Assembly: GCA_902596065.1 (NCBI GenBank)
Contig: CACJSL010000002.1
Coordinates: 12,794 to 76,793 of the forward strand
Direction: 5' to 3'
DNA from: an uncultured Alphaproteobacteria bacterium
GTDB lineage: Bacteria; Pseudomonadota; Alphaproteobacteria; HIMB59; GCA-002718135
DNA length: 64,000 bases
The position numbers and the translations under genes are program-made. Shown piece after piece: positions 34,648 through 47,962 of the stretch. Positions within the stretch are counted from its first letter, which is position 1. The number at the start of each line of letters is the position of its first letter. The notes beneath the pieces were generated by a model. That model was given only the letters and a program-made list of their open reading frames with translations. It made no database searches and was not told the DNA's origin.

Positions 34648-36276
34648 ATGAACAAATCTAAATATGATGTTGCAATTATTGGTGGTGGTCATAATGGGCT
34701 CACCACAGCATGTTATTTAGCTAAAGCTGGACTAAAAGTAGTTGTTGTAGAAAAACATGATTATGTGGGGGGAGCAGCTGTAAGCAGAGAGCTTCATCCA
34801 GGTTGGACATATTCTAACTGTTCATACGTCTGTAGTTTGCTTAGACCTGAAATTTTTAGAGATTTAGAATTATCTAAACACGGTTTACAAATTATACCTT
34901 ACGAAGGTAGTGCAAGCATGCTTAATGATGGGAGATTTTACGCACATTACCAAGATCATGATTTAACTTATAGATCTATTGCTCAATTTTCCAAAAAAGA
35001 TGCTGAAGCCTATGATAGATTTGGAAAAGATGTGATGCGACAGTGTAAAATTATTAAACCTCTTTTAAAGATGACACCTCCTGATCCTACTTCATTTTCT
35101 CCAAAGGATATAATGGGTTTATTTGAATTTGCTAAATATTTTGCTGCAAAAGATGAGTTAGGAGGCTTAGGTGAGAAAGAAATATACGATACAATTCGTT
35201 TTTGGACAATGAGTGTTAGGGATTATCTCGAAGAATATTTTGAATCAGAAATTGTAAAAGTGCATTTAGCAGGGTCTGCTATCATTGGAACAGCTTTAGG
35301 CCCTTATTCTCCAGGCTCTGCATATGTATTGCTACATCATTATATGGGAGAAGTAGATGGTACTGTTGGAGCGTGGGGGTACGCTAGAGGAGGTATGGGT
35401 TCAATTACAAAAGCTATGGCATCTTCTTTTAAATCAAAAAATGGAGAAATTAAATCTGGTTCGCCAGTCACAAAAATTCTTATTAAAAATAATAAAAGTT
35501 ATGGTCTTGTTCTTGAAAATGGAGATGAAATTTATGCTGATAAAATAGTTTCAAACCTTGATGTCAAAAGAACCTTTTTAAAAGTTGTTGAGGAAAAAGA
35601 ATTACCCAATGATTTTTACAAAGCAGTAAAAAATTTTAAAATCAGAGGATCTTCAGGAAAGTTAAATATTGCTCTTGATGATCTACCTATTTGGAAAAGT
35701 ATTCCAGAGGGTGATCCAGCTGGAACAGGTGACTTACATATAACTCAGAATATTGAAGAGATGGAGGGAGCATATGATGATTGGAAAGATGGTAAGTGGT
35801 CTCAATTTCCATATGTTGATATGTGTATTCCAAGTATAAATGATCCCACTATGGCCCCTCAAGGAAAACACTATATGTCTGTTTTTATTCAATATGTTCC
35901 TTACAATTTAGCAGATGGAGGATGGACAGAAGAAAAGCGTCTTGAATTTGGCAAACATGTGATGGGTAGGATTGGAAATTATTCAACAAACTTCAATGAT
36001 ATCATTAATCATGCAGAAATTAGAACTCCTAAAGAATTAGAAGCTGAAGTTGGTTTAACAGAAGGAAATATTTTTCAAGGTGAGCTTACTATGGATCAGT
36101 TAATGTTTAACCGCCCTGTACCTGGTTATGCTCAATATAAAACGCCTATAAAAAATCTTTATATGTGTGGTTCTAGCACTCATCCTGGCGGAGGAGTAAT
36201 GGGAGCACCTGGAGCAAATGCTGCAAGAGAAATATTAAAAGATTTAAACAAAAAGATATCAACACATTATATATGA
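34648..36276 (+). CDS. CrtI/phytoene-desaturase-family (flavin amine-oxidase superfamily) FAD-dependent oxidoreductase, paralogue 1
   Basis: 542 aa. N-terminal YDVAIIGGGHNGLTTACYLAKAGLKVVVVEKHDYVGGAA and C-terminal LYMCGSSTHPGGGVMGAPGANAA. Confidence 0.8.
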   Translation: MNKSKYDVAIIGGGHNGLTTACYLAKAGLKVVVVEKHDYVGGAAVSRELHPGWTYSNCSYVCSLLRPEIFRDLELSKHGLQIIPYEGSASMLNDGRFYAHYQDHDLTYRSIAQFSKKDAEAYDRFGKDVMRQCKIIKPLLKMTPPDPTSFSPKDIMGLFEFAKYFAAKDELGGLGEKEIYDTIRFWTMSVRDYLEEYFESEIVKVHLAGSAIIGTALGPYSPGSAYVLLHHYMGEVDGTVGAWGYARGGMGSITKAMASSFKSKNGEIKSGSPVTKILIKNNKSYGLVLENGDEIYADKIVSNLDVKRTFLKVVEEKELPNDFYKAVKNFKIRGSSGKLNIALDDLPIWKSIPEGDPAGTGDLHITQNIEEMEGAYDDWKDGKWSQFPYVDMCIPSINDPTMAPQGKHYMSVFIQYVPYNLADGGWTEEKRLEFGKHVMGRIGNYSTNFNDIINHAEIRTPKELEAEVGLTEGNIFQGELTMDQLMFNRPVPGYAQYKTPIKNLYMCGSSTHPGGGVMGAPGANAAREILKDLNKKISTHYI

Positions 36277-37739
36277 AAAAATTTGATGTAATAATAATTG
36301 GAGGTGGACATAATGGTTTAGTTGCATCTTCATATCTAGCCAAAAAAGGTAAAAAAGTTTTGGTAATTGAAAAAAATGAACATGTTGGAGGATTAGCGGA
36401 ATATGCAAATTCACTGAGTTGTATTTCTCCTATCATTAAAAAAGAATTAAATATCAATATTCCTAATATTAAAGATACAGATTACATTATATCTCTTGAA
36501 GATAATCAAAATCATACAATCTTAGAGGATAAAAACGGTAAGCTATCTTTTGTAAAAACGAATGCTGATGAAGATGATCAGAAAACATTTTTATCAATTA
36601 TTAATAACTACAAATTATTTTCAAAAACTCTTGGATCTTTTATGCATCAAAAACCCCCAAGAGTTAAATCAGGAAAAAGGTCAGACTTATTTCAATTAAT
36701 GTCCATGGGATGGAAAATTAGAAAATTAGGTAAAAAAAATATGCGAGAGCTATTAAGAGTAATTGGTTTAAATATTGCTGATGATTTAGAGGATAATTTA
36801 AATAACGATAACTTAAAGGGTTTATTGTCCCATGAATCAGTTTTAGGCTCAAACTTGGGTCCTAGATCTCCTGGCTCAATATTGACTTTACTTTATAAGC
36901 AAGCAATCAATGATAATATTTTTAATTTGAAGAAGATAGAAGTTACAAACTATATTAATCAATTAGAAGATTGTTGTAAAAAAAATACAGTAGAAATAAT
37001 TAAATCCTCTGAAGTTAGAAAAATAGTAACTAAAAACAACTCTGTTACTGGTATTCAATTAAATAATAATGAGGTTATAGAATCAGCATGCGTTATGTCT
37101 AATGCTGACCCCAAAACAACTTACTTAAATTTATTAGGCGCAGAAATATTAGATACTGATTTTATTAGAAGAATTAAAAATTTTAGAAACAAGGGAAATG
37201 TTGCTAAACTTGAATTAGTTTTAGAAAATGAGATTAATATTAAAAATATTGATAAGAAAATGTATGGAAAATTTATTTACGCCCCAAATATAAAATACAT
37301 AGAACATGCATTTAATGCCAATAAGTATAATCATTATTCTAAAAATCCATGTTTGGAATTTTATGTTAATGATAACACTTTGTCAGCAAACATTTACTAT
37401 GTTCCATATTTAATTAATGCTAGTCATCAAGAAAATGAAATAATTGAAAAGTGTGTTGCTGTTTTAAGTAAATTTATTCCAGATATGAATATAAGAAAAC
37501 AAGAACTTATTACTCCAAATCAAATGGAGGAAAAATATAATATATCTGGTGGTCATTGGCATCATGGTGATTTAGAAATAGATCAATTACTAATGATGAG
37601 ACCTTTTTATGGATCTTCTCAATATTCAACTCCTGTTAACGGTTTATATTTATGCAGTGCTGGCACTCATCCTGGAGGAGGTTTAACTGGTATCAACGGT
37701 CTTAATGCAGCAAAAAAAATAGTAGAGGACTTAAAATAA
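36273..37739 (+). CDS. CrtI/phytoene-desaturase-family FAD-dependent oxidoreductase, paralogue 2
   Basis: 488 aa with FDVIIIGGGHNGLVASSYLAKKGKKVLVIEKNEHVGG and LYLCSAGTHPGGGLTGINGLNAA. Its ATG overlaps the upstream stop (ATGA). Confidence 0.75.
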   Translation: MKKFDVIIIGGGHNGLVASSYLAKKGKKVLVIEKNEHVGGLAEYANSLSCISPIIKKELNINIPNIKDTDYIISLEDNQNHTILEDKNGKLSFVKTNADEDDQKTFLSIINNYKLFSKTLGSFMHQKPPRVKSGKRSDLFQLMSMGWKIRKLGKKNMRELLRVIGLNIADDLEDNLNNDNLKGLLSHESVLGSNLGPRSPGSILTLLYKQAINDNIFNLKKIEVTNYINQLEDCCKKNTVEIIKSSEVRKIVTKNNSVTGIQLNNNEVIESACVMSNADPKTTYLNLLGAEILDTDFIRRIKNFRNKGNVAKLELVLENEINIKNIDKKMYGKFIYAPNIKYIEHAFNANKYNHYSKNPCLEFYVNDNTLSANIYYVPYLINASHQENEIIEKCVAVLSKFIPDMNIRKQELITPNQMEEKYNISGGHWHHGDLEIDQLLMMRPFYGSSQYSTPVNGLYLCSAGTHPGGGLTGINGLNAAKKIVEDLK

Positions 37740-38941
37740 TGAATAAAGAAAAAATTTCATATAAAAAACCTCTATTAGAAACACCTTTTCATAAAAGAAC
37801 ATCTGAGCATTGTTATGCAAATGATTGGTATAGATGGGCTGGTTACAAAGTTGCCAAAGAATACTCCTCAACTGAACTTGAATATACTTCAATGAGAAAC
37901 ACTGCAGGAGTAATAGATATAACTCCAATGCATAAATATGAAATTAAAGGTAAAGATGCAAAAAAATTTATTAATAAATTAATTACAAAAAATATTACTA
38001 ATATTCAATCTAATCAAGTAGCCTACGGCATATGGTGCAATGAAGATGGAATGGTGATTGATGATGGAACAATATTTTGCTTAAACGAAAATCATTATAG
38101 AATTTTTTGCGCTGAGAGAAATCTTAATTGGTTTTGTGATACAGCTACTGGATTTAATGTAACTATTGAAGATATAAGCTCATCAATTGCTGCTTTAGCT
38201 TTTCAAGGTCCTTTATCTTGTAAAATTTTAAATCTTTTAAAAGTAGAAAATATAGAAAACCTTAAACCTTTTCATTTTGATAATTACAAACTTGAAAATC
38301 AAAATGTCACAATTTCAAGAACAGGCTTTTCTGGAGATTTAGGTTATGAAATATGGTGTGACCCTTCTCAGGCTATCGATGTATGGGACAGCTTATTTAA
38401 GTTTAACAGAGATTATAAAGTACTTGCTGCTGGAATGAACTCACTTGAGATGGTGAGAATTGAAGCAGGATTTATCCAACCAAATGCAGATTTTATGTCT
38501 GCAGAACAGGCTTTAAGACCAAATAGAATGAGAAACCCATATGAATTAGGTTTAGGTTGGTTAGTAAATCTAGATAAAGAGTATTTTACTGGGAAACAGG
38601 CTTTAATTAGACACAAAGAAAAGGGGCCTGAAAAAAAACTTGTAGGATTGGATGTTGAGGGAGATAAGCCTGCTGTGGGATCTGTCCTCTATGATAATAG
38701 TAAGAAAAATATAGCCAAAGAAATTGGTATAGTGACAGCAGCAATGTGGTCCCCTGTTCTTAAATCTAATATTGCAATTGGATTTGTTAACAAAGAATAT
38801 TATAAGTTAGGATCTAATGTTTATGCTGAAATTTACCATCCAGAAGAATTGGATTATAGAAAAATTTGGGCTGAATGCAAAGTGGTAAAAAAGCAATTTT
38901 TTAACAATCCAAGAAGGAATGCTATTCCTGCATTTATATAG
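37739..38941 (+). CDS. GcvT-family aminomethyltransferase-like folate-binding protein
   Basis: 400 aa. TPFHKRT, AGVIDITPMHKYEIKGKDA, LAFQGP, ISRTGFSGDLGYEIW and LRIEAGF are typical GcvT/DmdA-family blocks. Its ATG overlaps the upstream stop (TAATG). Confidence 0.85.
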   Translation: MNKEKISYKKPLLETPFHKRTSEHCYANDWYRWAGYKVAKEYSSTELEYTSMRNTAGVIDITPMHKYEIKGKDAKKFINKLITKNITNIQSNQVAYGIWCNEDGMVIDDGTIFCLNENHYRIFCAERNLNWFCDTATGFNVTIEDISSSIAALAFQGPLSCKILNLLKVENIENLKPFHFDNYKLENQNVTISRTGFSGDLGYEIWCDPSQAIDVWDSLFKFNRDYKVLAAGMNSLEMVRIEAGFIQPNADFMSAEQALRPNRMRNPYELGLGWLVNLDKEYFTGKQALIRHKEKGPEKKLVGLDVEGDKPAVGSVLYDNSKKNIAKEIGIVTAAMWSPVLKSNIAIGFVNKEYYKLGSNVYAEIYHPEELDYRKIWAECKVVKKQFFNNPRRNAIPAFI

Positions 38942-38953: not shown

Positions 38954-40105
38954 ATGGAATTTAATCTTTCAGAAGAACAGAATCTTTTAATTGATACTAC
39001 TAAATCATTCGTAAAAGCAGAATTATTGCAACATGAAGAACTATTAGAAAAAACAAATAATTTACCAAAAGAATTATATGATGAAATTAAGAAAAAAAGT
39101 ATTGAAGCAGGCTTATATGCTTGCAATATGCCAACTGAACATGGTGGTGGTGGCTTAAATGCTTTTGATTTAACCTTGGTTGAAAAACATCTAGGATTTG
39201 CATCACTTGCTTTAGCAGAAATTGCTTGGAGACCACAAAATATCTTAATGGCCTGCGAAGGTGAACTAGTAGATGAATACTTAAAACCGGCTATTACTGG
39301 AGAGAGAAAAGATTGTATTGCTATGACTGAACCTGGCGCTGGTTCAGATTTAAGAGGTATGAAAACGAAAGCAGTTAAAGATAGAAATGATTGGATTATT
39401 AATGGAACAAAACATTTTATATCTAATGCTCACATCTCTGACTTTGTTGTTCTTTTTGCTTCAACAGGTGAAGATGATAAAGGTAGAAATTCACTTTCTT
39501 GTTTTTTAGTTGATTTAAAACAAAAAGGAGTTGAAGTTGCTAAAGGATATGACTGTGTCTCTCACAGAGGATATGTAAATAATATTATACATTTTAATGA
39601 TTGTAGAATTCCTGGAAAAAATATTCTTGGAGAAAAAGATAAGGGTTTTGAATTAATGAATGTTTGGTTGGAAGCTACTAGATTAACTGTTGCGGCTACA
39701 TCGGTATCTAGAGCAGAAAGAGCTTTTGATATCGCTTTGGATTGGTCAGCTAATAGAAAACAATTTGGAAAAGTCATTGGAAAATTTCAAGGTGTTTCAT
39801 TTAAACTAGCTGATATGGCTACAGAAATTAAATTAGCAAATTTAATGTTAATGGAATCAGCTTGGAAGATTGATCAAAAAACATTAACTTCCCAAGATGC
39901 TGCAATGACAAAATTATTTTGCACTGAAATGTTAAGCAGAGTTTCAGATGAAGCAATTCAAATTTGTGGTGGAATGGGATTAATGGCAGATATACCTCTT
40001 GAAAGAATATGGCGTGATGCAAGAATAGAAAGAATTTGGGAAGGGACAAGTGAAATTCAACGGCATATTATTTCACGTTCTTTATTAAGACCCCTTGGAG
40101 CATAA
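38954..40105 (+). CDS. Acyl-CoA dehydrogenase
   Basis: 383 aa with EFNLSEEQ, CIAMTEPGAGSDL, QFGKVIGKFQGV, ICGGMGL and RIERIWEGTSEIQR. Confidence 0.9.
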   Translation: MEFNLSEEQNLLIDTTKSFVKAELLQHEELLEKTNNLPKELYDEIKKKSIEAGLYACNMPTEHGGGGLNAFDLTLVEKHLGFASLALAEIAWRPQNILMACEGELVDEYLKPAITGERKDCIAMTEPGAGSDLRGMKTKAVKDRNDWIINGTKHFISNAHISDFVVLFASTGEDDKGRNSLSCFLVDLKQKGVEVAKGYDCVSHRGYVNNIIHFNDCRIPGKNILGEKDKGFELMNVWLEATRLTVAATSVSRAERAFDIALDWSANRKQFGKVIGKFQGVSFKLADMATEIKLANLMLMESAWKIDQKTLTSQDAAMTKLFCTEMLSRVSDEAIQICGGMGLMADIPLERIWRDARIERIWEGTSEIQRHIISRSLLRPLGA

Positions 40106-40108
40106 TCT

Positions 40109-42145
40109 TTGAACTTAAAAAAACTTTTTAGACCAAAAAGCTTGGCTATAATAGGAGGCTATTGGGCAGACTTTGTTTATGATGGTAACAAAACTATTGG
40201 TTATAAAGGTAAAGTTTGGCATATAAATCCTTCACGAAAAAGCACCAAAAGAAAAAAATATTATAAAAATATTAAAGATCTACCAGAAATACCTGATTGT
40301 GTTTATCTTGCCGTTTCAAGAGATCAAACTGTAAAATTAATTAAAGATATATCTAATATGGGTGTTGGAGGAACAGTTTGCCTGGCTTCAAGATTTTCTG
40401 AACTTAATTCAAAAGAAGGAAAAGATAAAACTAATGAACTTATAAAAAACTCTGGTAAGATGCCTTTTCTGGGACCAAATTGTTATGGATTTATCAATTA
40501 TTTAGATAAAATTTCTGTATGGTCAGATCAAGTTTCTGGGAAACCAACAAAAAAAGGTGTTGCTATTATATGTCAGAGCGGAACAATTGGTAATACTATT
40601 AGTTTTAACAATAGATCTTTGCCTATTGGCTACATAATTTCTTTAGGTAATCAATCAAAAATAACCATTGAAGATGCAATTAATTATGCCCTTGATGATA
40701 ACAGAGTAACCGCCATTGGTATTTACGCCGAAAGTTTTACTAATACTGCAAAATTAATTAAAGTATTTAAAAAATCTAAGTTAAAGAACATACCTATAGC
40801 TATAGTCAAAGTAGGCAGATCTAAAATTGCATCTAAAACAATTCTAACACATACTGGCTCTCTTAGTGGGAAAGAAGATATTTATGATTCTTTGTTTCAA
40901 AGAATGGGGGTAGCAAAATGCAATACATTAGGCGAATTATGTGAAATTTTAAAATTATTTCATACACATGGAGTTTTAAAAGATGATCAAATTTCAATAA
41001 TGGGACCATCTGGAGGAGATATGGCTATGATAGGAGATGTGGCAGAATCTTTATCATTAAAATTTGGCAAAATACCTCCAAAAATAAAAAATGATTTAAA
41101 AAAAGTTAATCACCCAAGCGTGATAATATCAAATCCTTTTGATTTACAAACATACAATTGGAATGATCCTGAGAATCTAGAAAAAACATTTAAATTAATA
41201 TTCAAAACAAATTTTGCTTTAAATGCACTGATGTTAGATCTTCCAAATGTAGAAGATTGTGATACTGAAGAGTGGGATGCAATAGTTGATAAATTTATAA
41301 AATCTTCAAAAATAAAAAAAAATGGAGCAATTATTTCTTCACTTTCAGATACTCTTCCAAAATATTTAAGAGAAAAATGTCTAAAGTATAACGTTGTTCC
41401 TCTTCAAGGCATGTCAGAAAGCTTATTAGCTATAAGTAATTCAATAAAAATTGGCAAAGTATGGAAGAATTTTGCTGGTATAAAAATTCCTGAGAAAATA
41501 CCAAATCTTAAAAAGAAAATAAAAACATATTCAGAATATGAATCAAAGTTAATTTTAAAGAAAAACAAAATACCTATTCCAAAATCCTTAGTTACAAATA
41601 AAAAGAATATATTGCGTGATTCTAAAAAAATTGGATTTCCTTTAGTGGCAAAAATAAATTCAAATACAGTTTTTCATAAAACTGAAATTGGAGGTGTTGT
41701 AACAAATATTAATAGTGAAAAAGAATTAAAGAAAAAAACAAATAAATTTACTGGTAATATCTTAATTGAAAAAATGATAACTGATAATGTCTTTGAAATG
41801 ATTATAGGAATAAAAAACGATAATGAATTTGGTCCTACTATAATTTTAGGAGCTGGAGGAATTTATACTGAATTATTTAAAGATACAACCACCCTACTCT
41901 TACCTTTAACTAAAAGAATGATTATGGAAGAGATAAAAAAACTAAAATTTAGTAAAATATTATTTGGTTTTAGAGGAAAAAATAGTGGTGATTTAGATGC
42001 TTTAGTTTGTTCAATATTAAAAATTGCTAAATTTGCTGAAAATAATTATGATAAAATTTCAGAAGTTGATATAAATCCATTAATAGTTTGTAAAAAAGGC
42101 AAAGGGGTGTTTGCTGTAGATGCATTAATACATTATTTTAAATAA
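40109..42145 (+). CDS. ADP(NDP)-forming acyl-CoA synthetase, fused alpha/beta (CoA-binding + ligase-CoA + ATP-grasp domains)
   Basis: 678 aa. N-terminal LFRPKSLAIIGG CoA-binding fold, GPNCYGFIN, and a C-terminal ATP-grasp (E.ESK.IL....IPIP..., GFPLVAKI). TTG start 3 nt after the ACAD stop. Confidence 0.8.
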   Translation: MNLKKLFRPKSLAIIGGYWADFVYDGNKTIGYKGKVWHINPSRKSTKRKKYYKNIKDLPEIPDCVYLAVSRDQTVKLIKDISNMGVGGTVCLASRFSELNSKEGKDKTNELIKNSGKMPFLGPNCYGFINYLDKISVWSDQVSGKPTKKGVAIICQSGTIGNTISFNNRSLPIGYIISLGNQSKITIEDAINYALDDNRVTAIGIYAESFTNTAKLIKVFKKSKLKNIPIAIVKVGRSKIASKTILTHTGSLSGKEDIYDSLFQRMGVAKCNTLGELCEILKLFHTHGVLKDDQISIMGPSGGDMAMIGDVAESLSLKFGKIPPKIKNDLKKVNHPSVIISNPFDLQTYNWNDPENLEKTFKLIFKTNFALNALMLDLPNVEDCDTEEWDAIVDKFIKSSKIKKNGAIISSLSDTLPKYLREKCLKYNVVPLQGMSESLLAISNSIKIGKVWKNFAGIKIPEKIPNLKKKIKTYSEYESKLILKKNKIPIPKSLVTNKKNILRDSKKIGFPLVAKINSNTVFHKTEIGGVVTNINSEKELKKKTNKFTGNILIEKMITDNVFEMIIGIKNDNEFGPTIILGAGGIYTELFKDTTTLLLPLTKRMIMEEIKKLKFSKILFGFRGKNSGDLDALVCSILKIAKFAENNYDKISEVDINPLIVCKKGKGVFAVDALIHYFK

Positions 42146-42149
42146 TTAT

Positions 42150-42926
42150 ATGAATAAACCTATAAAAACTAAAATTGAAGGATCAATATTAGAAGTAACA
42201 ATTGATCGTCCAAAAGCGAACGCTATAGACTCTAAAACTAGCATAATATTAGGAGATATTTTTGCTGATTTTAGAGATAATCCTAAACTTAAAGTTGCTA
42301 TAATAACTGGAGGTGGTGAAAAATTTTTTTCTGCTGGATGGGATCTTAAAGCTGTAAATGAAGGAGAAGCTGCTGATGCAGATTATGGCGTAGGTGGATT
42401 TGGAGGATTGCAAGAATTACCAAATATGAATAAACCTATTATTTCTGCTGTTAATGGTATTGCGTGTGGAGGTGGTTTTGAAATCATGATTTCAGCAGAT
42501 ATTATTATTGCTGCAGATCACGCTACTTTTGCTTTACCTGAAATTAATGTTGGTGTCATAGCTGATGCGGCAACTATAAAACTAAGAAGAAGAATTCCCT
42601 ATCATGTAGCTGTCGAATTTTTAATGACAGGTAGGTGGATGGATGTCAAAGAAGCAAAGCACTGGGGTTTAGTTAATGAAATAGTTGATAAAAAAGATTT
42701 ATTAAAAAGATCCTGGGAAATTGCTGATAAAATTTCAAAAGGGCCTAATTTAATATATTCATCAATCAAAGAAGTTTTAAGAGAAACAGAAAATGAAAAG
42801 GAGATACCTTCTTTTGATATTCTTCGATCCTTAGAAACTGTAAAGAAAGTTTATGGAAGTGAAGACTTAAAAGAAGGTGCCTCTTCTTTTGTAAAAAAAA
42901 CTGATCCAAATTGGAAAGATAAATAG
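42150..42926 (+). CDS. Crotonase-superfamily hydratase, CaiD (carnitinyl-CoA dehydratase)-like
   Basis: 258 aa. The blocks [52 protein letters not shown] and [12 protein letters not shown] closely track the E. coli CaiD sequence as I recall it ([53 protein letters not shown]). Confidence 0.8.
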   Translation: [258 protein letters not shown]

Positions 42927-42982: not shown

Positions 42983-44359
42983 ATGAAAAACGATTATATT
43001 AGTGAAATTCATAAAAAAGATAGATTAGTTCTTCATCCTTATGAAGATACAAATACAAGAGGAACATATAACCGTAAACTAATTACAAAATCAGATAATA
43101 TTTATTTATATGATGAAAATGGGACTGAATATATTGATGGTCCTGGAGGAATGTGGTGTAATAATATTGGCCACGGCAATAAGGAAATTGGAGAAGCCGT
43201 AAAAAAACAACTTGAAAAATTAGAATATTGTAGTCCTTTTTCAGAATCTACTGAAATATCAGCTGAATTAGCTTCGGTTTTATCAGAGTTATCTCCCGGT
43301 GATCTGAATACAGTTTTTTTTACCACCGATGGATCAACTGCAAATGATACTGCTTTAAGATTTATAATGTTTTATAATAATATGCTAGGTCGTCCTAATA
43401 AAAAACATATCATTACAAGAAATAAAGCTTATCACGGCAGTACCTATTTAACAGGATCAATAACTGGGAAAGATAGAGAAAAAAATAATTTTGATTTTGA
43501 AAAAGATTTTATACATCATTTAAGTGCTCCTTTAGAGTATAGAAGAAAAGATAATCAAACTGTGGAAGAGTTTTGTGATGATCTAGTGAAAGAATTTGAA
43601 AATAAAATTCTTGAGCTTGGTTCTGAAAATGTCGCTGCTTTTATAGCAGAACCTATTATGGCATCTGGAGGATGTATTGTTCCACCAGAGGGTTATTTAA
43701 AAAGAATTTGGGAAATTTGTAAAAAAAATGATGTACTTTTTATATCTGATGAAGTTGTTACTGGCTTTGGAAGAATAGGTCATTTTTTTGCTTCAGAAAA
43801 AGTATTTGGAGTAACACCTGACATTATAACTTGTGCTAAAGGTATCACTTCAGGATATATGCCTTTGGGTGCTGTTTTATTTTCAGATAAATTGCTTAAT
43901 GATCTTAAAAATGATTCTGCTCTTTTTTTTCATGGATATACATATTCTGGTCACCCCGCTTGTTGTGCAGCAGCATTAAAGAATATAGAAATTATTAAAA
44001 GAGATAAAATTCTTGAACATGTTCAAAATATAGAACCTTACTTTCATCAACAATTAAAAAAATTATACGATTTACCAATTGTAGGAGATATAAGAGGCAA
44101 AGGACTTATGGCTGGAATAGAATGCGTGATTAATAAAGACAGTAAAGAGGCTCTAGTATTAGATAAAGCTATAGGTTCTAGAATTGATGAAGAGTCATTA
44201 AAATTGGGATTAATAATTCGTCCACTTTATCATATATGTGTTTTATCTCCTGCTTTAATTATTTCAAAAAATCAAATTGATACACTTGTAGATAAATTAT
44301 ATTTAGCAATTAAAAATACAATAACACAATTAGAAGTAGAGGGCTTATGGAAAGGTTAA
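42983..44359 (+). CDS. Class III (omega) pyridoxal-phosphate aminotransferase
   Basis: 458 aa with AYHGSTY, FIAEPIMASGG, LFISDEVVTGFGRIGHFF and TCAKGITSGYMPLG (PLP-binding Lys). Confidence 0.9.
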   Translation: MKNDYISEIHKKDRLVLHPYEDTNTRGTYNRKLITKSDNIYLYDENGTEYIDGPGGMWCNNIGHGNKEIGEAVKKQLEKLEYCSPFSESTEISAELASVLSELSPGDLNTVFFTTDGSTANDTALRFIMFYNNMLGRPNKKHIITRNKAYHGSTYLTGSITGKDREKNNFDFEKDFIHHLSAPLEYRRKDNQTVEEFCDDLVKEFENKILELGSENVAAFIAEPIMASGGCIVPPEGYLKRIWEICKKNDVLFISDEVVTGFGRIGHFFASEKVFGVTPDIITCAKGITSGYMPLGAVLFSDKLLNDLKNDSALFFHGYTYSGHPACCAAALKNIEIIKRDKILEHVQNIEPYFHQQLKKLYDLPIVGDIRGKGLMAGIECVINKDSKEALVLDKAIGSRIDEESLKLGLIIRPLYHICVLSPALIISKNQIDTLVDKLYLAIKNTITQLEVEGLWKG

Positions 44360-44368: not shown

Positions 44369-45556
44369 ATGCTTTCCAATATTAAAAGGTATTTTGACTT
44401 TAGTTCAATAAATTCTAGTATAAAATATTTATCTATTGTTGCTTTCTTTACAGGCACAGTTCTTGGTTATTTTTTCACAATAATAGTAATTTTACAAAAA
44501 TATGCAGGTTATTCAGAATCAACAATTGGTTTAATTGCCTCTAGTTTTTCTTTTGGGTTAATGTCTGCAGGTTTTTTTGTGTCTAAAACTTTAGATAGAT
44601 TTGGATTATTTAATACATTGATATTTTCAGTATGTATTCAAGCCTTATGTGTTATTTCTATGTTTGTATATTTTAATCCAATAAATTTTGTGATTTGTCA
44701 TTTTATCATGGGACTTACGGGTGGCATGAATTGGATGACAATGGATACTTGGGTAAATATTGTTTCTAATAACAATAATAGAGGAAAATCTATAGGTTTA
44801 TATAATTCAGCAATTTCAATTGGTTTTGGTGTAGGGCCATTAATTGTAGCTGTTTTAGGAAGTAAAGGATCTTTACCAATTTTTATATGCTTAATATTAA
44901 TGGCTTTCAGAATTTTTATGATTATTTTAATAAAAAAACATATCGAAAATGTAGAAATACCTAAGCAAAAGAAACAAATTAGTTTTTCATTCATTGTAAT
45001 GGCCCCTTTTGTTTTTGTTGCTATATTTATTGGGGGAATTAACGACTCTACTTTTGGTGCTTTATTTCCTGCATTTATGATAAATGAATTCTTTTCTGAC
45101 AGACAAATTGGTTTCTATTATTTTTTAGGAGCTTTTGCTGGTGTCTTATCTCAACCTTTTGTAGGAGCATTAAGTGATAAAATAGATAAAAGAAAATTAA
45201 TTTTTATTTTTCTTTGTGGAAATATTATATGGCCACTACTCCTATTAAAAACTATAAACTTAGATTATGCTGTTTACATTTCAGTTATTATATGGGGTTG
45301 TTCAAGTATTAGTTTATATACTGTGACTTTGGCCTATTTAGGACAAAGGATAAAAATCAAGGAAATAGCAATAGCTACCTCATTATTCATCATAATATAT
45401 GAAGCAGGAGAATTCATAGGGCCTATTTCCGTAGGTATAGTTATGGACAGTATGGGAAATAATGGATTTATTTATAGCCTATTAATCTTTACTAGTTTTA
45501 GTATAATAATTGGATTTATCAGATCAGTTTTAAAAAATGAAAATAAAAATAATTAA
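44369..45556 (+). CDS. MFS transporter
   Basis: 395 aa with 12 predicted TMS in a 6+6 arrangement and a central basic loop (KKHIENVEIPKQKKQ). Confidence 0.8.
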   Translation: MLSNIKRYFDFSSINSSIKYLSIVAFFTGTVLGYFFTIIVILQKYAGYSESTIGLIASSFSFGLMSAGFFVSKTLDRFGLFNTLIFSVCIQALCVISMFVYFNPINFVICHFIMGLTGGMNWMTMDTWVNIVSNNNNRGKSIGLYNSAISIGFGVGPLIVAVLGSKGSLPIFICLILMAFRIFMIILIKKHIENVEIPKQKKQISFSFIVMAPFVFVAIFIGGINDSTFGALFPAFMINEFFSDRQIGFYYFLGAFAGVLSQPFVGALSDKIDKRKLIFIFLCGNIIWPLLLLKTINLDYAVYISVIIWGCSSISLYTVTLAYLGQRIKIKEIAIATSLFIIIYEAGEFIGPISVGIVMDSMGNNGFIYSLLIFTSFSIIIGFIRSVLKNENKNN

Positions 45557-45983
45557 AGCAAAAAAAGAGAATATTAAGGATGTTGGCATTCTATTTGATT
45601 TATATAGACAATTTTATAAATATAATCCTGAATTAAAAAAATCTACTAAATATATCAAAGAAAGAATTTCTAAAAAAGATTCAACTATTTTTGTATGCTA
45701 CCAAGATAAGGAGGCATGCGGATTTGTGCAATTATATGAAACTTTTGATTCCCTTAATATTAATAAAAAATTAATCTTATATGATTTGTTTGTAAAAGAA
45801 ATTTTTAGAAAAAAAAGAATAGGTAGAAAATTAATGAATACTGCAAAAAAATTTGCAGTTAAAAAGAAAATTAAAATAATAGAACTATCTACTGCAATTA
45901 CTAATAAGAAGGCTCAATCACTTTATGAATCTCTTGAATATAAAAGAGATAAAGAATATTATAACTATTATTTAGAATTATAA
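45537..45983 (+). CDS. GNAT-family N-acetyltransferase
   Basis: 148 aa with an acetyl-CoA-binding motif context, LFVKEIFRKKRIGRKLM (R/Q-x-x-G-x-G/A-like). It overlaps the MFS gene by 20 nt. Confidence 0.75.
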   Translation: MKIKIIKAKKENIKDVGILFDLYRQFYKYNPELKKSTKYIKERISKKDSTIFVCYQDKEACGFVQLYETFDSLNINKKLILYDLFVKEIFRKKRIGRKLMNTAKKFAVKKKIKIIELSTAITNKKAQSLYESLEYKRDKEYYNYYLEL

Positions 45984-45985: not shown

Positions 45986-46555
45986 ATGAAAACTGTTAAA
46001 TTTAATGAAATGAAAGATGGGGATAAAGAAGATTATGAACTTCTTGCTAAATTTGAAGATAAATACATAGAAGGTACGGCTGATAGAGTTATTCGTATTT
46101 TAAAAGGTTTAGACAGTTCATTAGGAGGTTATAAAGTTTCTAGATTAGAACACTCTTTACAAACTGCATCAAGAGCACTGAGAGATAATGCATCAGAAGA
46201 AATGATAGTCGCAGCCCTATTACATGATATAGGAGATGAAATAGCTCCATTAAATCATTCAGAAATATCTGCAGCAGTATTAAGGCCTTTTGTTGCTGAA
46301 AAAACTCATTGGATAGTTCAAAAACATGGATTATTTCAATCTTATTATTATAATCATCATTATGGAAATGATCGAAATTTAAGAGATAAATATAAAGATC
46401 ATCCTTTTTTTATAGATACTGTTAATTTTTGCTCAAAGTGGGATCAAAATTCTTTTGATCCAAATTATGAAACTATTCCTCTTAAAGATTTTATTCCTTT
46501 AGTTTATAAAATTTTTAATAGAGACCCTCATAAACATGTATATTTGGGACTTTAA
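45986..46555 (+). CDS. HD-domain metalloprotein (phosphohydrolase fold; possible PhnZ/MIOX-like oxygenase)
   Basis: 189 aa with H56 (LEHSLQTA), H80-D81 (AALLHDIGD), further conserved-looking His (H91, H108, H114, H124/125, H139) and KWDQNSFD near the C-terminus. The EHSLQ.A....A.EEM..AALLHD pattern resembles PhnZ as I recall it. Confidence 0.7.
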   Translation: MKTVKFNEMKDGDKEDYELLAKFEDKYIEGTADRVIRILKGLDSSLGGYKVSRLEHSLQTASRALRDNASEEMIVAALLHDIGDEIAPLNHSEISAAVLRPFVAEKTHWIVQKHGLFQSYYYNHHYGNDRNLRDKYKDHPFFIDTVNFCSKWDQNSFDPNYETIPLKDFIPLVYKIFNRDPHKHVYLGL

Positions 46556-46560: not shown

Positions 46561-47028
46561 TTATTTTTTTAATTTATTAATAAGATGTAAATTTCCTGGT
46601 TTAAAATTATTTTTATTATCTTCTATAAAATTTTTAATTAAGCTACTTTTTGATTCCTCAAATTCAGTTACTTTGCGAGAATTCAAATCCACATATAATG
46701 AACAAACCTCTGTTGTAGCTGCTAAGTATTTTTCTGACTTGTGAATCATTTCAAGTTTATAAACAATACGTTTTTTATCAAAATCAATAAAAAGTAATTT
46801 AATATCAACTTCATCTCCAACTTTAACTTCCATGTCATAAGTTGTGTGCGATTCTACAGCAAAAGTAGTTCTTTTTTCAATTTTAGCTGCATCTTCTCCT
46901 ATATTAAATTTTTGCAGCAAAACCTCCCAAGCAGAATCAAAGAGATGAATATAAAAAGCAAGGTTCATATGACCGTTATAATCAGTCCATTCAGATTTAA
47001 CACGACCTGTTTTTAAATAAATACTCAC
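46561..47028 (-). CDS. Hotdog-fold (4HBT/YbgC-type) acyl-CoA thioesterase
   Basis: 155 aa. The N-terminal [15 protein letters not shown] matches the 4HBT-type D-x-N-x-H-(V/M)-N motif. It is divergent from the BKACE gene. Confidence 0.72.
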
Positions 47029-47071: not shown

Positions 47072-47962
47072 ATGAACAATGAAGTTATAATAAGTTGTGC
47101 TGTTACTGGATCTGGTGATACTGCTAAAAAGCATCCTGAACTTCCAATAACTCCGAAACAAATAGCTGACGCTGCTATAGAGGCAGCTAAGGAGGGGGCG
47201 GCTATTGCTCATATGCATGTGCGAGAACCAGACGGAAAACCAAGCAGAAAACTTGAATACTATAAAGAGGTTGCAGATAGAATCAGATCAAGCGATACTG
47301 ATGTTGTAATCAATTTTACTACTGGTATGGGAGGAGACTTTGAAGTTGGAGAGGGAAAAGATCCTTTAAATCCTATAGGGCCTAACACCGATATGGTACA
47401 TGCCCTTGATCGTTTAGAGCATGTTGAAGAATTATTACCAGAAATATGCACTTTAGATTGTGGCTCTCTGAATTTTGGAGATACAAATATGCTATTTGTC
47501 CATACTCCAATCCAGTTAAGAGCTGCTGCAAAAAAAATGCAAGATTTAGGAGTTAAACCAGAAATGGAAGCTTTTGAAATGGGGCACTTATGGTTTGCAA
47601 ATCAATTATATAAAGAAGGACTAGTTGATGGACCTCCAATGTATCAAATATGTTTAGGTATACCTTGGGGCTCTCCAGCTGATACAAGCTCAATGAAAGT
47701 AATGGCAGACATGATACCTTCTGAAGGTATCTGGGCTGGTTTTGGTATAGGAAGACACCAAATGCCTATGGCTGCTCAAGCTGTAGTTTTAGGTGGAAAT
47801 GTTCGAGTAGGTCTTGAAGATAATTTATATTTAAAAAAAGGAGTATTAGCATCGAACGGTCAATTAGTTGAAAAAGCTGCAAGAATAGTTGATGATTTGG
47901 GTGCAAAAATATTAAATCCTGAAGAAGTAAGAGAAAAATTAAAATTAAAAAAACATTTTTAA
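47072..47962 (+). CDS. BKACE (beta-keto acid cleavage enzyme, DUF849 / 3-keto-5-aminohexanoate cleavage enzyme family)
   Basis: 296 aa. [13 protein letters not shown]...[38 protein letters not shown] is the characteristic DUF849 N-terminus, followed by [12 protein letters not shown] near the C-terminus. Confidence 0.85.

What the first reader, a model, noticed from the sequence alone, without database searches (positions are those of the whole stretch)
38954..42926. bco/cai-like beta-oxidation segment (ACAD, acyl-CoA synthetase, CaiD-like hydratase) in which activation is by an ADP-forming synthetase
Three genes sit 3-4 nt apart: an acyl-CoA dehydrogenase, a 678-aa fused NDP-forming acyl-CoA synthetase, and a crotonase. 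The crotonase blocks ([36 protein letters not shown]) closely match my memory of E. coli carnitinyl-CoA dehydratase CaiD.

Established knowledge: rhizobial gamma-butyrobetaine catabolism (bco genes) runs synthetase, then butyrobetainyl-CoA dehydrogenase, then crotonobetainyl-CoA hydratase, then thioesterase. Enteric cai genes use the ACAD homologue CaiA and the crotonase CaiD on the same CoA esters.

The window has every one of these functions (thioesterase at 46561-47028). However, activation is by an ADP-forming enzyme, not an AMP-forming ligase (CaiC) or CoA transferase (CaiB).

Inference: the operon beta-oxidises an omega-(methyl)ammonium carboxylate as its CoA ester. Control by a BetI-like repressor fits a quaternary-amine inducer.
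Basis: partly seen in the sequence, partly recalled or inferred. Interest (0 to 1): 0.72.

Follow-up and report, generated by a model that had tools for sequence, protein, structure and literature searches.

The report
Butyrobetaine-to-carnitine CoA pathway genes
These three genes match the known rhizobial bco module that converts gamma-butyrobetaine to L-carnitine through CoA esters, here found in an uncultured low-GC marine alphaproteobacterium, so the pathway is ordinary although its genomic setting is unusual.

Summary
The acyl-CoA dehydrogenase (38954-40105), the 678-aa fused NDP-forming acyl-CoA synthetase (40109-42145) and the crotonase (42150-42926) are real and lie 3-4 nt apart.

They match the rhizobial bcoC-bcoA/B-bcoD module in gene order and sequence. 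Against Rhizobium etli p42c the dehydrogenase is 56% identical, the hydratase 57% and the synthetase 34%. In p42c the trio follows a BKACE and a carnitine dehydrogenase/thioesterase. On NJ trees the hydratase and dehydrogenase fall in the bco-type clades, outside E. coli CaiD and CaiA.

The "ADP-forming" twist is not new, because the rhizobial cluster has the same type of synthetase as its only activating enzyme.

Three features do differ:
- The trio sits inside a separate operon (TetR | two CrtI-like flavoproteins, GcvT-like, aminotransferase, GNAT, plus a Pot-type ABC transporter). That operon occurs without the trio on Rhizobium and roseobacter plasmids.
- The carnitine dehydrogenase gene that four sister genomes carry between BKACE and the MDR reductase is absent here.
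- The closest relatives are GORG single-cell genomes and a MarineAlpha5 genome, not named SAR11.

Verdict: a new member of a known kind. The substrate remains an inference.

The parts
38954..40105 (+). BcoC-type acyl-CoA dehydrogenase (proposed gamma-butyrobetainyl-CoA to crotonobetainyl-CoA)
   Evidence: Pfam ACAD domains. 56% identical to the ACAD of the R. etli carnitine cluster and 30% to E. coli CaiA. On the NJ tree the window lineage is basal inside the bco-type ACAD clade, and CaiA is excluded in 45 of 50 bootstraps. Glu363 in WEGTSEIQ sits at the motif position of the usual ACAD catalytic base, judged by motif and from memory of MCAD Glu376.
40109..42145 (+). BcoA/B-type fused NDP-forming acyl-CoA synthetase (proposed gamma-butyrobetaine + ATP + CoA to acyl-CoA + ADP + Pi)
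   Evidence: CoA_binding_2, Succ_CoA_lig and ATP-grasp_5 domains. 34% identical over 99% of its length, E about 1e-120, to the ACS genes of Rhizobium carnitine clusters. His248 in THTGSLSG aligns with the phosphohistidine His292 of DddX. W389 aligns with the DddX cation-pi residue F435. The DddX lyase base E432 is Thr here and Ala in rhizobia.
42150..42926 (+). BcoD/CaiD-type enoyl-CoA hydratase (proposed crotonobetainyl-CoA to L-carnitinyl-CoA)
   Evidence: ECH_1. The best NCBIfam model is CaiD at 289 bits, with the next at 198; the rhizobial BcoD-type protein itself scores only 319.5 against a cutoff of 500. 57% identical to the R. etli hydratase and 48% to E. coli CaiD. It falls in the bco-type clade with bootstrap 81. 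Both crotonase catalytic glutamates are present: GGGFE111 and LPE131.
46561..47028 (-). Stand-alone 4HBT_2 thioesterase (proposed carnitinyl-CoA / betainyl-CoA hydrolysis)
   Evidence: Pfam 4HBT_2. Its only NCBIfam hit is residues 345-484 of the fused carnitine 3-dehydrogenase model. 31% identical to the C-terminal domain of the R. etli enzyme. Other marine bco loci also have it unfused.
47072..47962 (+). BKACE (proposed 3-dehydrocarnitine + acetyl-CoA to betainyl-CoA + acetoacetate)
   Evidence: Pfam BKACE, E=1e-97. 55% identical to the BKACE of the R. etli carnitine cluster and up to 65% to those of marine bco loci. No excess of changes on the window branch: 7 against 7.
47963..47968 (.). 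Junction where sister genomes carry an L-carnitine dehydrogenase gene that is absent here
   Evidence: L004, L005 and L007 have a 311-313 aa ORF between BKACE and MDR. tblastn finds the same gene in L006. The L004 ORF has 3HCDH_N/3HCDH domains and scores 336 bits on NF005471, L-carnitine dehydrogenase. The window has 6 nt at this position. A tblastn with R. etli CDH finds no dehydrogenase domain anywhere in the window. Six metagenome scaffolds of the same population show the same arrangement.
44369..45556 (+). MFS transporter, candidate importer, specific to this lineage
   Evidence: MFS_1. Found only in L004-L007 among the 80 loci. Absent from the aminotransferase-GNAT junction of the Parasedimentitalea module. 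No specific family assignment.
33931..34584 (-). TetR/BetI-like repressor, divergent from the operon
   Evidence: TetR_N + TetR_C_6. BetI models score 98-102 bits, below their cutoffs. A TetR in the same divergent position, 28-35% identical, heads the flavoprotein/GcvT module in L090-L092.
34607..34634 (.). Imperfect palindrome, candidate TetR operator
   Evidence: ATTTGGTTGAATG-GT-CATTCAAAGAAAT lies in the 63-nt TetR/FAD1 intergenic region. The stretch aligned in L004 and L005 is identical, although the L004 slice I aligned ends inside the second arm. Its function is inferred.
34648..38941 (+). FAD1 (34648-36276), FAD2 (36273-37739) and GcvT-like protein (37739-38941): 5' half of a separate amine-catabolic module
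   Evidence: CrtI/amine-oxidase-like flavoproteins and a folate-binding aminomethyltransferase. The same three genes in the same order sit behind a TetR in Rhizobium sp. SL42, Fuscovulum ytuae and Parasedimentitalea marina plasmids, at 58-61%, 30-32% and 41% identity. Their substrate is unknown.
42983..44359 (+). Class-III omega-transaminase, 3' half of the same module
   Evidence: Aminotran_3. PRK07036 scores 664 bits, above its 618 cutoff. PDB relatives are amine/putrescine/GABA:pyruvate transaminases. 48-52% identical to the aminotransferase of the module in L090 and L092.
45537..45983 (+). GNAT acetyltransferase of the same module
   Evidence: Acetyltransf_1. A GNAT follows the aminotransferase in Parasedimentitalea pW43C.
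45986..46555 (+). HD-domain protein, a remote PhnZ/TmpB-like candidate diiron oxygenase
   Evidence: Weak HD hit. Best NCBIfam hits are Phn-HD at 40 bits and TmpB at 36 bits. PhnZ and TmpB are the only meaningful PDB hits. H56, H80, D81, H91, H114 and D153 are invariant across homologues.
47969..48976 (+). MDR NADPH oxidoreductase (curcumin reductase / LTB4 12-hydroxydehydrogenase type) directly after BKACE
   Evidence: ADH_N_2 + ADH_zinc_N. CurA model scores 341 bits against a 440 cutoff. Present only in the window lineage.
28804..32727 (.). Pot-type ABC transporter: binding protein 28804-29892 (+), ATPase and permeases 29942-32727 (-)
   Evidence: PotA/B/C-like and SBP_bac_8. 48-50% (ATPase and permeases) and 34% (binding protein) identical to the transporter beside the flavoprotein/GcvT module in Rhizobium sp. 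SL42.
32750..33928 (-). Second, lineage-specific acyl-CoA dehydrogenase (ACAD2)
   Evidence: ACAD domains. Only about 30-35% identical to the bco ACADs. No informative context elsewhere.

Best explanation
The three genes are this lineage's copy of the bcoC-bcoA/B-bcoD module. This is the CoA-dependent route that converts gamma-butyrobetaine (4-trimethylammoniobutanoate), and probably crotonobetaine, into L-carnitine.

Proposed steps:
1. The fused NDP-forming synthetase is phosphorylated by ATP on His248. It passes the phosphate to the carboxylate and forms gamma-butyrobetainyl-CoA, ADP and phosphate.
2. The flavin dehydrogenase makes crotonobetainyl-CoA and hands its electrons to ETF, which is not encoded in the window.
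3. The CaiD/BcoD-type hydratase adds water to give L-carnitinyl-CoA.
4. The stand-alone thioesterase (46561-47028) releases L-carnitine.

In sister genomes a carnitine dehydrogenase, the BKACE and the same thioesterase would then carry carnitine on to glycine betaine plus acetoacetate. In this window the dehydrogenase gene is missing. The pathway as encoded here therefore stops at L-carnitine, unless an enzyme not identified here makes 3-dehydrocarnitine.

Shown: domain content, catalytic residues, synteny, phylogenetic placement and the absence of the dehydrogenase gene. Inferred: the substrate, the ADP product, the thioesterase specificity and the direction of flux.
For: - Synteny with the rhizobial cluster. 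The best annotated hits of the synthetase lie in Rhizobium clusters ordered GlxA regulator | BKACE, carnitine 3-dehydrogenase (fused thioesterase), ACAD, NDP-forming ACS, carnitinyl-CoA dehydratase.
- Identities to R. etli p42c: ACAD 56%, hydratase 57%, BKACE 55%, synthetase 34%, thioesterase 31%.
- Link to experiment. S. meliloti BcoAB, a single gene product, makes gamma-butyrobetainyl-CoA from the acid, ATP and CoA (methods of 10.1101/2021.01.25.428109). SM2011_c01638 is the bifunctional carnitine dehydrogenase/betainyl-CoA hydrolase (PMC12482172). The next gene, SMc01639, is an acyl-CoA dehydrogenase (PMC12542648). That order is collinear with R. etli.
- Recurrence. ACAD-ACS-ECH in this order occurs in nearly all of 80 loci from Rhizobiaceae, Paracoccaceae, Arenicellales, Thioglobus, Kiloniella and others. 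A BKACE or a carnitine dehydrogenase is within 10 kb in most of them.
- Trees. The hydratase is inside the bco-type clade (bootstrap 81). In 98 of 100 replicates E. coli CaiD falls outside the clade joining the window and R. etli. The ACAD is in the bco-type clade with CaiA outside in 45 of 50 replicates.
- Catalytic residues. The synthetase phosphohistidine, both hydratase glutamates and the ACAD Glu are present.
- Sister genomes L004-L007 carry the full set in one region, including an L-carnitine dehydrogenase (336 bits on NF005471).
Against: - No experiment bears on this lineage.
- The synthetase, the enzyme that picks the substrate, is only 32-37% identical to every other bco-type synthetase, whereas those are 40-51% identical to one another. 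Its specificity could have shifted.
- The trio is embedded in an operon of N-demethylase-like and transaminase genes that the rhizobial pathway does not need.
- The carnitine dehydrogenase is absent from the window and from six scaffolds of the same population, so the route to glycine betaine is incomplete as encoded.
- I could not read Bazire et al. 2019. The equation of BcoA/B with the NDP-forming enzyme rests on cluster content and my memory of that paper.
- The trees are neighbour-joining only, and no experimentally characterised BcoC or BcoD sequence was available as an anchor.
Confidence: 0.7

Rival explanations
1. Same chemistry, different substrate. In this lineage the trio acts on a related omega-ammonium acid rather than on gamma-butyrobetaine itself. 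Candidates are 4-(di)methylaminobutyrate or 4-aminobutyrate made or consumed by the neighbouring flavoprotein/GcvT/aminotransferase genes, or a homologous betaine such as valerobetaine or beta-alanine betaine.
For: The trio is inserted between GcvT and the aminotransferase, which are adjacent in Parasedimentitalea pW43C. The synthetase is the most divergent component, at 32-37% identity to all others. The aminotransferase resembles pyruvate-dependent GABA/polyamine transaminases. A Pot-type amine transporter belongs to the same module.
Against: The dehydrogenase and hydratase keep 55-62% identity to bco-type enzymes and sit in those clades. Sister genomes keep a carnitine-dehydrogenase-type gene, a BKACE and the thioesterase in the same region, which makes sense only for a carnitine-like 3-hydroxy betaine. 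The synthetase evolves fastest in every lineage, so low identity by itself says little.
Confidence: 0.17
2. The pathway here is anabolic or osmoprotective. With no carnitine dehydrogenase, this population uses the module to make L-carnitine from scavenged gamma-butyrobetaine as an end product, not as a route to glycine betaine and carbon. This is a variant of the best explanation, not an alternative to the module assignment.
For: Clean absence of the dehydrogenase in the window and in six independent scaffolds at about 99% nucleotide identity. By my memory of Bazire et al. 2019, the rhizobial genes were described as carnitine-forming.
Against: The BKACE is intact and shows no acceleration on the window branch, 7 changes against 7, which argues that something still feeds it. 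The rest of the genome was not available, so a dehydrogenase may lie elsewhere.
Confidence: 0.15
3. A DMSP or 3-hydroxypropionate/acrylate pathway. GcvT-like, ACAD, CoA synthetase and crotonase in a row mimic DmdA, DmdC, DmdB and DmdD. Alternatively the synthetase is a DddX-like DMSP lyase, or a 3-hydroxypropionate-CoA ligase feeding a dehydratase.
For: The four enzyme classes of the DMSP demethylation pathway are contiguous at 37739-42926. The closest solved structures to the synthetase are 3-hydroxypropionate-CoA ligase (245 bits), 4-hydroxybutyrate-CoA ligase (214 bits) and the DMSP lyase DddX (183 bits). The ACAD's best NCBIfam model is acryloyl-CoA reductase.
Against: The GcvT-like protein scores 157 bits on the DmdA model against a cutoff of 410, and it belongs with the two flavoproteins in other bacteria that lack the trio. 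The rhizobial bco enzymes give the same pattern of NCBIfam hits. The DddX lyase base Glu432 is Thr here. All curated scores for the synthetase are far below cutoff, about 250-276 bits against 1200-1300.
Confidence: 0.05
4. Generic short-chain fatty-acid beta-oxidation under a TetR regulator.
For: All three families are common in fatty-acid metabolism. A RamB/ScfR-type short-chain acyl-CoA regulator lies downstream at 48973-50418.
Against: There is no 3-hydroxyacyl-CoA dehydrogenase or thiolase in the operon. The synteny and clade membership are specific to carnitine clusters. NDP-forming synthetases are not the usual fatty-acid activators, from general knowledge.
Confidence: 0.03

Closest known systems
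Rhizobial bco/cdh cluster (S. meliloti SMc01637-41 region, Bazire et al. 2019; the same cluster on R. etli p42c)
   Same: The three genes have the same order and the same enzyme types, including the fused NDP-forming synthetase. The hydratase, dehydrogenase and BKACE are 55-57% identical. A homologous thioesterase is present. The proposed chemistry is the same: activation, dehydrogenation and hydration to L-carnitinyl-CoA.
   Different: The synthetase is only 34% identical. The thioesterase is a separate gene on the opposite strand, not fused to the dehydrogenase. The carnitine dehydrogenase is absent from this window. The regulator is TetR/BetI-like, not GlxA-type. The trio is separated from the BKACE by four unrelated genes and embedded in another operon. 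No ABC transporter of the rhizobial type is present.
Enteric caiTABCDE / fixABCX carnitine respiration operon (E. coli)
   Same: The hydratase is a clear CaiD relative: 48% identical, and CaiD is its best curated model. The same CoA esters are involved.
   Different: There is no CaiT, CaiB, CaiC, CaiE or Fix homologue. The dehydrogenase is only 30% identical to CaiA and is not its orthologue. Activation is by an NDP-forming synthetase instead of a CoA-transferase/AMP-ligase pair. The direction is presumably oxidative (butyrobetaine to carnitine), not reductive.
DddX, the ATP-dependent DMSP lyase of the ACD superfamily (PDB 7CM9; PMC8163506)
   Same: Both are fused NDP-forming acyl-CoA synthetases acting on a small onium carboxylate. 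The phosphohistidine is conserved. An aromatic residue (W389) sits at the position of the DddX cation-pi residue F435.
   Different: Low similarity (183 bits). The general base Glu432 needed for the lyase step is Thr. W391 is not conserved in place. A gamma-onium CoA ester cannot undergo the beta-elimination that DddX performs.
Arctic SAR11 genomic island with BBOX, carnitine dehydrogenase, BKACE and acyl-CoA thioesterase (PMC12421898)
   Same: A streamlined marine alphaproteobacterium with an accessory gene set for turning butyrobetaine/carnitine into glycine betaine. It includes a BKACE and a thioesterase.
   Different: That island is described with gamma-butyrobetaine dioxygenase homologues, which would hydroxylate butyrobetaine directly, and it has a carnitine dehydrogenase. 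The present locus uses the CoA-dependent three-enzyme route and lacks the dehydrogenase.
Emergencia timonensis bbu cluster (anaerobic butyrobetaine to trimethylamine; 10.1101/2021.01.25.428109)
   Same: Butyrobetaine is handled as its CoA ester, with an acyl-CoA dehydrogenase-like flavoenzyme.
   Different: By my memory of that paper, bbu uses CoA transferases and eliminates trimethylamine. Nothing here suggests trimethylamine release, and a hydratase follows the dehydrogenase.

Membership tests
Rhizobial bco module (gamma-butyrobetaine to L-carnitine via CoA esters) | Contiguous genes in the order acyl-CoA dehydrogenase, CoA synthetase, enoyl-CoA hydratase | tested here: met
   Gaps of 3 and 4 nt in the window. 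Same order in R. etli p42c and a second Rhizobium replicon and in nearly all of 80 loci.
Rhizobial bco module (gamma-butyrobetaine to L-carnitine via CoA esters) | Activating enzyme is the fused NDP-forming (ACD-type) synthetase of the cluster | tested here: met
   Same three Pfam domains. Full-length alignment, 34% identity, E about 1e-120. His248 conserved. That experimentally studied BcoA/B is this protein is inferred from cluster content and from memory.
Rhizobial bco module (gamma-butyrobetaine to L-carnitine via CoA esters) | Hydratase groups with cluster-encoded BcoD-type hydratases on a tree | tested here: met
   NJ tree, 106 sequences. The bco-type clade has bootstrap 81 and includes the window lineage. 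E. coli CaiD is excluded in 98 of 100 replicates.
Rhizobial bco module (gamma-butyrobetaine to L-carnitine via CoA esters) | Dehydrogenase groups with cluster-encoded BcoC-type enzymes | tested here: met
   54-59% identical to bco-type ACADs. NJ tree places the lineage basal in that clade, with CaiA outside in 45 of 50 replicates.
Rhizobial bco module (gamma-butyrobetaine to L-carnitine via CoA esters) | Carnitinyl-CoA / betainyl-CoA thioesterase | tested here: inconclusive
   A homologous 4HBT_2 protein is present, at 31% identity to the thioesterase domain of the fused rhizobial enzyme. Its specificity cannot be read from sequence.
Rhizobial bco module (gamma-butyrobetaine to L-carnitine via CoA esters) | Activity on gamma-butyrobetaine / crotonobetaine | not testable with these tools
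   Needs enzyme assays or labelled-substrate experiments.
Carnitine-to-glycine-betaine module (carnitine dehydrogenase + BKACE + thioesterase) | NAD-dependent L-carnitine dehydrogenase (3HCDH family) | tested here: not met
   No 3HCDH-type match anywhere in the 64-kb window. The gene lies between BKACE and MDR in L004-L007 and is cleanly absent here and in six scaffolds of the same population.
Carnitine-to-glycine-betaine module (carnitine dehydrogenase + BKACE + thioesterase) | BKACE of the carnitine-cluster type | tested here: met
   55% identical to the R. etli cluster BKACE and up to 65% to those of marine bco loci.
Enteric cai operon | CaiD equivalog score (NF002936, cutoff 500) and CaiA equivalog score (NF002885, cutoff 540) | tested here: not met
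   289 and 188 bits. E. coli CaiD itself scores 563 bits, and the rhizobial hydratase 319.5.
Enteric cai operon | CaiT antiporter, CaiB CoA-transferase, CaiC AMP-forming ligase, CaiE, FixABCX | tested here: not met
   None among the ORFs annotated between 6.2 and 63.7 kb of the window. The first 6 kb was not scanned.
NDP-forming acyl-CoA synthetase (ACD) superfamily | CoA-binding, CoA-ligase and ATP-grasp domains, with the conserved phosphohistidine on the swinging loop | tested here: met
   Pfam domains. His248 aligns with DddX His292 and with the HTGSL motif of the 3-hydroxypropionate and 4-hydroxybutyrate ligases.
DddX-type DMSP lyase | General base Glu432 and cation-pi pair Trp391/Phe435 | tested here: not met
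   Glu432 is Thr386. Trp391 is Gln347, although Y349 and W351 lie nearby. Phe435 is Trp389.
DMSP demethylation pathway (DmdABCD) | DmdA equivalog score (NF009133, cutoff 410) | tested here: not met
   The GcvT-like protein scores 157 bits. Its best model is the folate domain of TMAO demethylase at 250 bits.

The most novel reading that the evidence does not exclude
In this lineage the bco trio has been wired into a second, uncharacterised catabolic operon. That operon holds a TetR, two CrtI-like flavoproteins, a folate-dependent GcvT-like protein, an omega-transaminase, a GNAT and a Pot-type transporter, and here also carries a PhnZ/TmpB-like HD-domain oxygenase.

The most novel reading still open is that the combined operon is an undescribed route that fully dismantles butyrobetaine- or carnitine-type betaines. 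The flavoprotein/GcvT pair would remove N-methyl groups onto tetrahydrofolate. In this population, which has lost carnitine dehydrogenase, a non-canonical enzyme would carry L-carnitine onward. Candidates are the HD-domain oxygenase or the MDR oxidoreductase next to the BKACE.
Probability: 0.12. Interest if true: 0.7.

Novelty: new member of a known kind. Interest (0 to 1): 0.38.

Why it matters
Gamma-butyrobetaine (TMAB) and carnitine are measured components of marine particulate metabolite pools (PMC9321204). Their consumers in the open ocean are poorly known.

In the library searched, papers on marine bacterioplankton mention only the dioxygenase (BBOX) route and the carnitine dehydrogenase/BKACE genes. 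This work shows that the CoA-dependent bco route is encoded in an abundant low-GC marine alphaproteobacterial population; the same hydratase sequence is on 60 contigs, including Tara samples. The same three-gene module also occurs in Thioglobus, Arenicellales, Kiloniella and many Paracoccaceae. That gives a concrete gene marker for butyrobetaine turnover in metagenomes and metatranscriptomes.

It also corrects a likely misdirection.

The biochemical principle itself is already known.

Tried and rejected
- Literature anchor. Bazire et al. 2019 (PMC6416908) is not held. A search for bco gene names found nothing relevant, and a search for SMc locus tags gave only indirect support.
- Source names. 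A homologue search seeded with the rhizobial synthetase, hoping for a "butyrobetaine-CoA ligase" name, returned only "acetate--CoA ligase family protein".
- First homologue search. The search with the crotonase returned only near-identical marine sequences and no diversity. Diversity came instead from the representative library and the genome scan.
- Signature residues. A screen for residues separating the CaiD/BcoD clade from neighbouring crotonases gave only six positions, of which the window has five. This is too few to weigh.
- Promoter and terminator scan of 32.5-50.6 kb. Counts were at or below shuffled expectation, so they say nothing about operon limits.
- Rfam. Only one tRNA, and no riboswitch near the operon.
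- FAD1 in scaffold L084. An apparent disruption is a 100-N scaffold gap.
- HD-domain oxygenase contexts. Seven plasmid contexts were checked for a recurrent carnitine link. One is suggestive (a TmpA/BBOX-like dioxygenase plus choline genes in P. aeruginosa). The rest are inconsistent.
- Relaxed selection on the BKACE after loss of the dehydrogenase. No sign of it: 7 changes against 7.
- DMSP-pathway and generic fatty-acid readings. Considered and rejected on synteny and model scores.

Full report
**Observation.** The window is about 29% G+C. Three ORFs lie on the + strand at 38954-40105 (383 aa), 40109-42145 (678 aa, TTG start) and 42150-42926 (258 aa), separated by 3 and 4 nt. Pfam assigns them to acyl-CoA dehydrogenases, to the fused CoA_binding_2/Succ_CoA_lig/ATP-grasp_5 architecture of NDP-forming acyl-CoA synthetases, and to the crotonase family, with E-values from 1e-45 to 1e-58. 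The thioesterase at 46561-47028 and the BetI-type TetR at 33931-34584 are also real.

**What the trio is.** A tblastn of the synthetase against annotated plasmids hit 476 records, led by Rhizobium replicons at 33-35% identity over 99% of the protein. In R. etli CFN42 p42c, and in a second replicon labelled Sinorhizobium sp. B11, the hit lies in a cluster ordered GlxA-type regulator | BKACE, carnitine 3-dehydrogenase (496 aa, fused thioesterase), acyl-CoA dehydrogenase, "acetate-CoA ligase family protein" (684 aa), carnitinyl-CoA dehydratase, ABC transporter. The neighbours of the window synthetase are much closer to those genes than the synthetase itself is. The dehydrogenase is 56% identical, the hydratase 57% and the BKACE at 47072-47962 55%. 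The stand-alone thioesterase is 31% identical to the C-terminal domain of the fused dehydrogenase.

**Link to experiment.** That five-gene set corresponds to the S. meliloti pathway from gamma-butyrobetaine to glycine betaine.
- BcoAB, a single gene product, makes gamma-butyrobetainyl-CoA from the acid, ATP and CoA (methods of 10.1101/2021.01.25.428109, citing Bazire et al. 2019).
- SM2011_c01638 is the bifunctional carnitine dehydrogenase/betainyl-CoA hydrolase (PMC12482172).
- The adjacent SMc01639 is an acyl-CoA dehydrogenase (PMC12542648).

I could not read Bazire et al.. The statement that BcoA/B is the NDP-forming enzyme therefore rests on it being the only CoA-activating gene in the cluster, and on my memory of that paper.

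**Distribution and phylogeny.** A scan of one genome per species, using an alignment of the window and rhizobial synthetases, found 595 relatives, of which the best 80 were kept. In almost all 80 the order is ACAD-ACS-ECH, with the ACAD 54-61% and the hydratase 50-62% identical to the window proteins. A BKACE or a carnitine dehydrogenase is within 10 kb in most. Carriers include Rhizobiaceae, many Paracoccaceae, Arenicellales, a Thioglobus genome, Kiloniella and Halopseudomonas.

The hydratase tree (NJ) combined 106 sequences: those from the loci, full-length sequences from a search of 1.84 billion representatives, E. coli CaiD and the window's second crotonase as outgroup. It puts the window lineage inside the clade of synthetase-linked hydratases with bootstrap 81. 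E. coli CaiD falls in the neighbouring group, and in 98 of 100 replicates it lies outside the clade joining the window and R. etli.

The dehydrogenase tree puts the window lineage basal within the bco-type clade. E. coli CaiA, at 30% identity, is as far away as the paralogue ACAD2.

The curated CaiD model is the best hit for the hydratase (289 bits, next best 198). Its cutoff of 500 is tuned to enterobacteria, because the rhizobial hydratase also scores only 319.5.

**The synthetase.** It is the fastest-evolving member in every lineage. Other bco-type synthetases are 40-51% identical to one another, whereas their dehydrogenases are 54-77% identical. The window lineage is the most divergent branch for all three proteins. 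Low identity alone therefore does not argue for a new specificity, but it leaves room for one.

His248 (THTGSLSG) aligns with the phosphohistidine of the ACD superfamily, His292 in DddX. That supports an ADP + Pi mechanism. Aligned to DddX, which also takes an onium carboxylate, the cation-pi residue Phe435 corresponds to Trp389, invariant in the three-sequence alignment. The lyase base Glu432 is Thr here and Ala in rhizobia. Trp391 is not conserved in place, although Tyr349 and Trp351 lie two to four residues on. This fits a synthetase that binds an onium head group but does not eliminate it. It is an alignment-based inference.

The central point is that ADP-forming activation is the rhizobial state, not a novelty. 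It contrasts only with the enteric CaiB/CaiC pair, none of which is present in the annotated part of the window.

**Setting: a composite operon.** Only four genomes share the rest of the operon: three GORG single-cell genomes (AG-447-I04, -A02, -J18) and MarineAlpha5_Bin3. The genes around the trio belong to a different conserved module. On plasmids of Rhizobium sp. SL42, Fuscovulum ytuae and Parasedimentitalea marina, a divergent TetR heads FAD1-FAD2-GcvT-like in the same order, at 58-61%, 30-32% and 41% identity. A class-III aminotransferase (48-52%) and a Pot-type ABC transporter accompany them, with Rieske oxygenases nearby. In P. marina the order is GcvT, aminotransferase, GNAT. None of the other 76 bco loci has these genes.

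In the window lineage the bco trio thus sits between GcvT and the aminotransferase of that module. The thioesterase | BKACE pair lies four genes further down. The substrate of the embedding module is unknown. Its parts suggest removal of N-methyl groups onto tetrahydrofolate followed by transamination of an amine brought in by a polyamine-type transporter. The BetI-like regulator belongs to this module. A 13+13-nt palindrome at 34607-34634 is a candidate operator; the portion aligned in L004 and L005 is identical.

**A missing step.** In L004, L005 and L007 a 311-313 aa ORF lies between the BKACE and the MDR reductase, and tblastn finds the same gene in L006. The L004 ORF has 3HCDH domains and scores 336 bits on the L-carnitine dehydrogenase model, against a cutoff of 414. 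The window has 6 nt at this position and no 3HCDH-type match anywhere in its 64 kb. Six metagenome scaffolds carrying the identical hydratase show the same arrangement; the one compared directly (L084) is about 99% identical in DNA. This is a property of the population, not an assembly error.

The BKACE shows no excess of substitutions on the window branch, 7 against 7. Either the loss is recent or something else supplies its substrate. As encoded here, the pathway reaches L-carnitine but has no assigned enzyme for the next oxidation.

**Taxonomy.** Source names for the same proteins say only "Alphaproteobacteria bacterium". No locus among the best 80 is named Pelagibacter, although the collection holds one genome per species. 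MarineAlpha5 is grouped with HIMB59 in PMC8879329. The SAR11 label is unverified, and typical SAR11 cultures probably lack the module. Because the core of the operon is far more similar to L004 (83-98% amino-acid identity) than the flanks are (63-76%), the operon itself is a poor taxonomic marker.

**Rivals.**
- The contiguous GcvT-like, ACAD, synthetase and crotonase genes mimic DmdA/C/B/D. However, the GcvT-like protein scores 157 bits against 410 on the DmdA model and belongs to the other module.
- The resemblance of the synthetase to 3-hydroxypropionate and 4-hydroxybutyrate ligases, and of the ACAD to acryloyl-CoA reductase, is shared by the rhizobial enzymes.
- Generic fatty-acid oxidation lacks a 3-hydroxyacyl-CoA dehydrogenase and a thiolase in the operon.
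- The most serious alternative is a shifted substrate within the same chemistry, given the operon fusion and the divergent synthetase.

**Verdict.** This is a new member of a known kind. The assignment to the bco module is well supported by synteny and trees (about 0.85). Gamma-butyrobetaine or crotonobetaine as the physiological substrate is likely but unproven (about 0.7). Interest is moderate. The biochemistry is known. What is new is the ecological reach of the module in marine bacteria, its fusion with an uncharacterised amine operon, and the loss of carnitine dehydrogenase in this population.

Noticed in passing
window 47962-47969; L004 17863-18804, L005 17854-18789, L007 9856-10794: An L-carnitine dehydrogenase gene lies between the BKACE and the MDR reductase in the closest relatives. 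It is cleanly absent in the window and in six metagenome scaffolds of the same population. The BKACE remains intact and is not evolving faster.
   Followed up: yes
window 28804-38941 and 42983-45983; L090, L091, L092: A conserved module of unknown substrate occurs on Rhizobium, Fuscovulum and Parasedimentitalea plasmids without any bco genes. It consists of a TetR, two CrtI-like flavoproteins, a GcvT-like protein, a class-III aminotransferase, sometimes a GNAT, and a Pot-type ABC transporter, often with Rieske oxygenases nearby. In the window lineage the bco trio is inserted into it.
   Followed up: partly
window 45986-46555: A 189-aa HD-domain protein is remotely related to the diiron oxygenases PhnZ and TmpB, with six invariant His/Asp candidate ligands. 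A 49.5% identical homologue on a P. aeruginosa plasmid sits beside a TmpA/BBOX-like dioxygenase, a choline-binding protein and choline dehydrogenase. Other contexts are inconsistent.
   Followed up: partly
window 29942-50418 compared with L004: Mosaic similarity to AG-447-I04. The core genes from TetR to BKACE are 78-98% identical in protein, with most at 83-98%. The Pot transporter (63-68%), the MDR reductase (69%) and the RamB-like regulator (76%) are much more divergent, with an excess of window-specific changes in PotABC. This suggests recombination or transfer of the operon core.
   Followed up: partly
window 16635-29892: Upstream lies a dense amine-catabolic neighbourhood: two glutamine-synthetase-like (gamma-glutamylpolyamine synthetase-type) genes, two DAO-type FAD oxidases, a GbcA-like Rieske oxygenase (19395-20663), agmatine deiminase, N-carbamoylputrescine amidase and an amidase.
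   Followed up: no
window 53659-63674: Downstream are glycine-betaine-related genes that could take the pathway's product onward: a BHMT-like homocysteine methyltransferase (54508-55407), choline dehydrogenase (55427-57058) and a ProVWX-type transporter (60534-63674). A second crotonase (53659-54444, PRK08139 type) is also there.
   Followed up: no
window 32750-33928: A second acyl-CoA dehydrogenase lies between the Pot permease and the TetR. It is conserved only in the window lineage and is about 30-35% identical to the bco dehydrogenases. Its role is unknown.
   Followed up: partly
window 34607-34634: An imperfect 13+13-nt palindrome lies in the TetR/FAD1 intergenic region. The part aligned in L004 and L005 is identical. 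It is a candidate operator.
   Followed up: partly
L018, L021, L031, L032, L013: Several marine metagenome-assembled genomes carry a compact version of the pathway: thioesterase | BKACE, carnitine dehydrogenase, ACAD, ACS, ECH, with the thioesterase and dehydrogenase unfused as in the window lineage. Their BKACEs are the closest to the window's, at 62-65% identity.
   Followed up: partly
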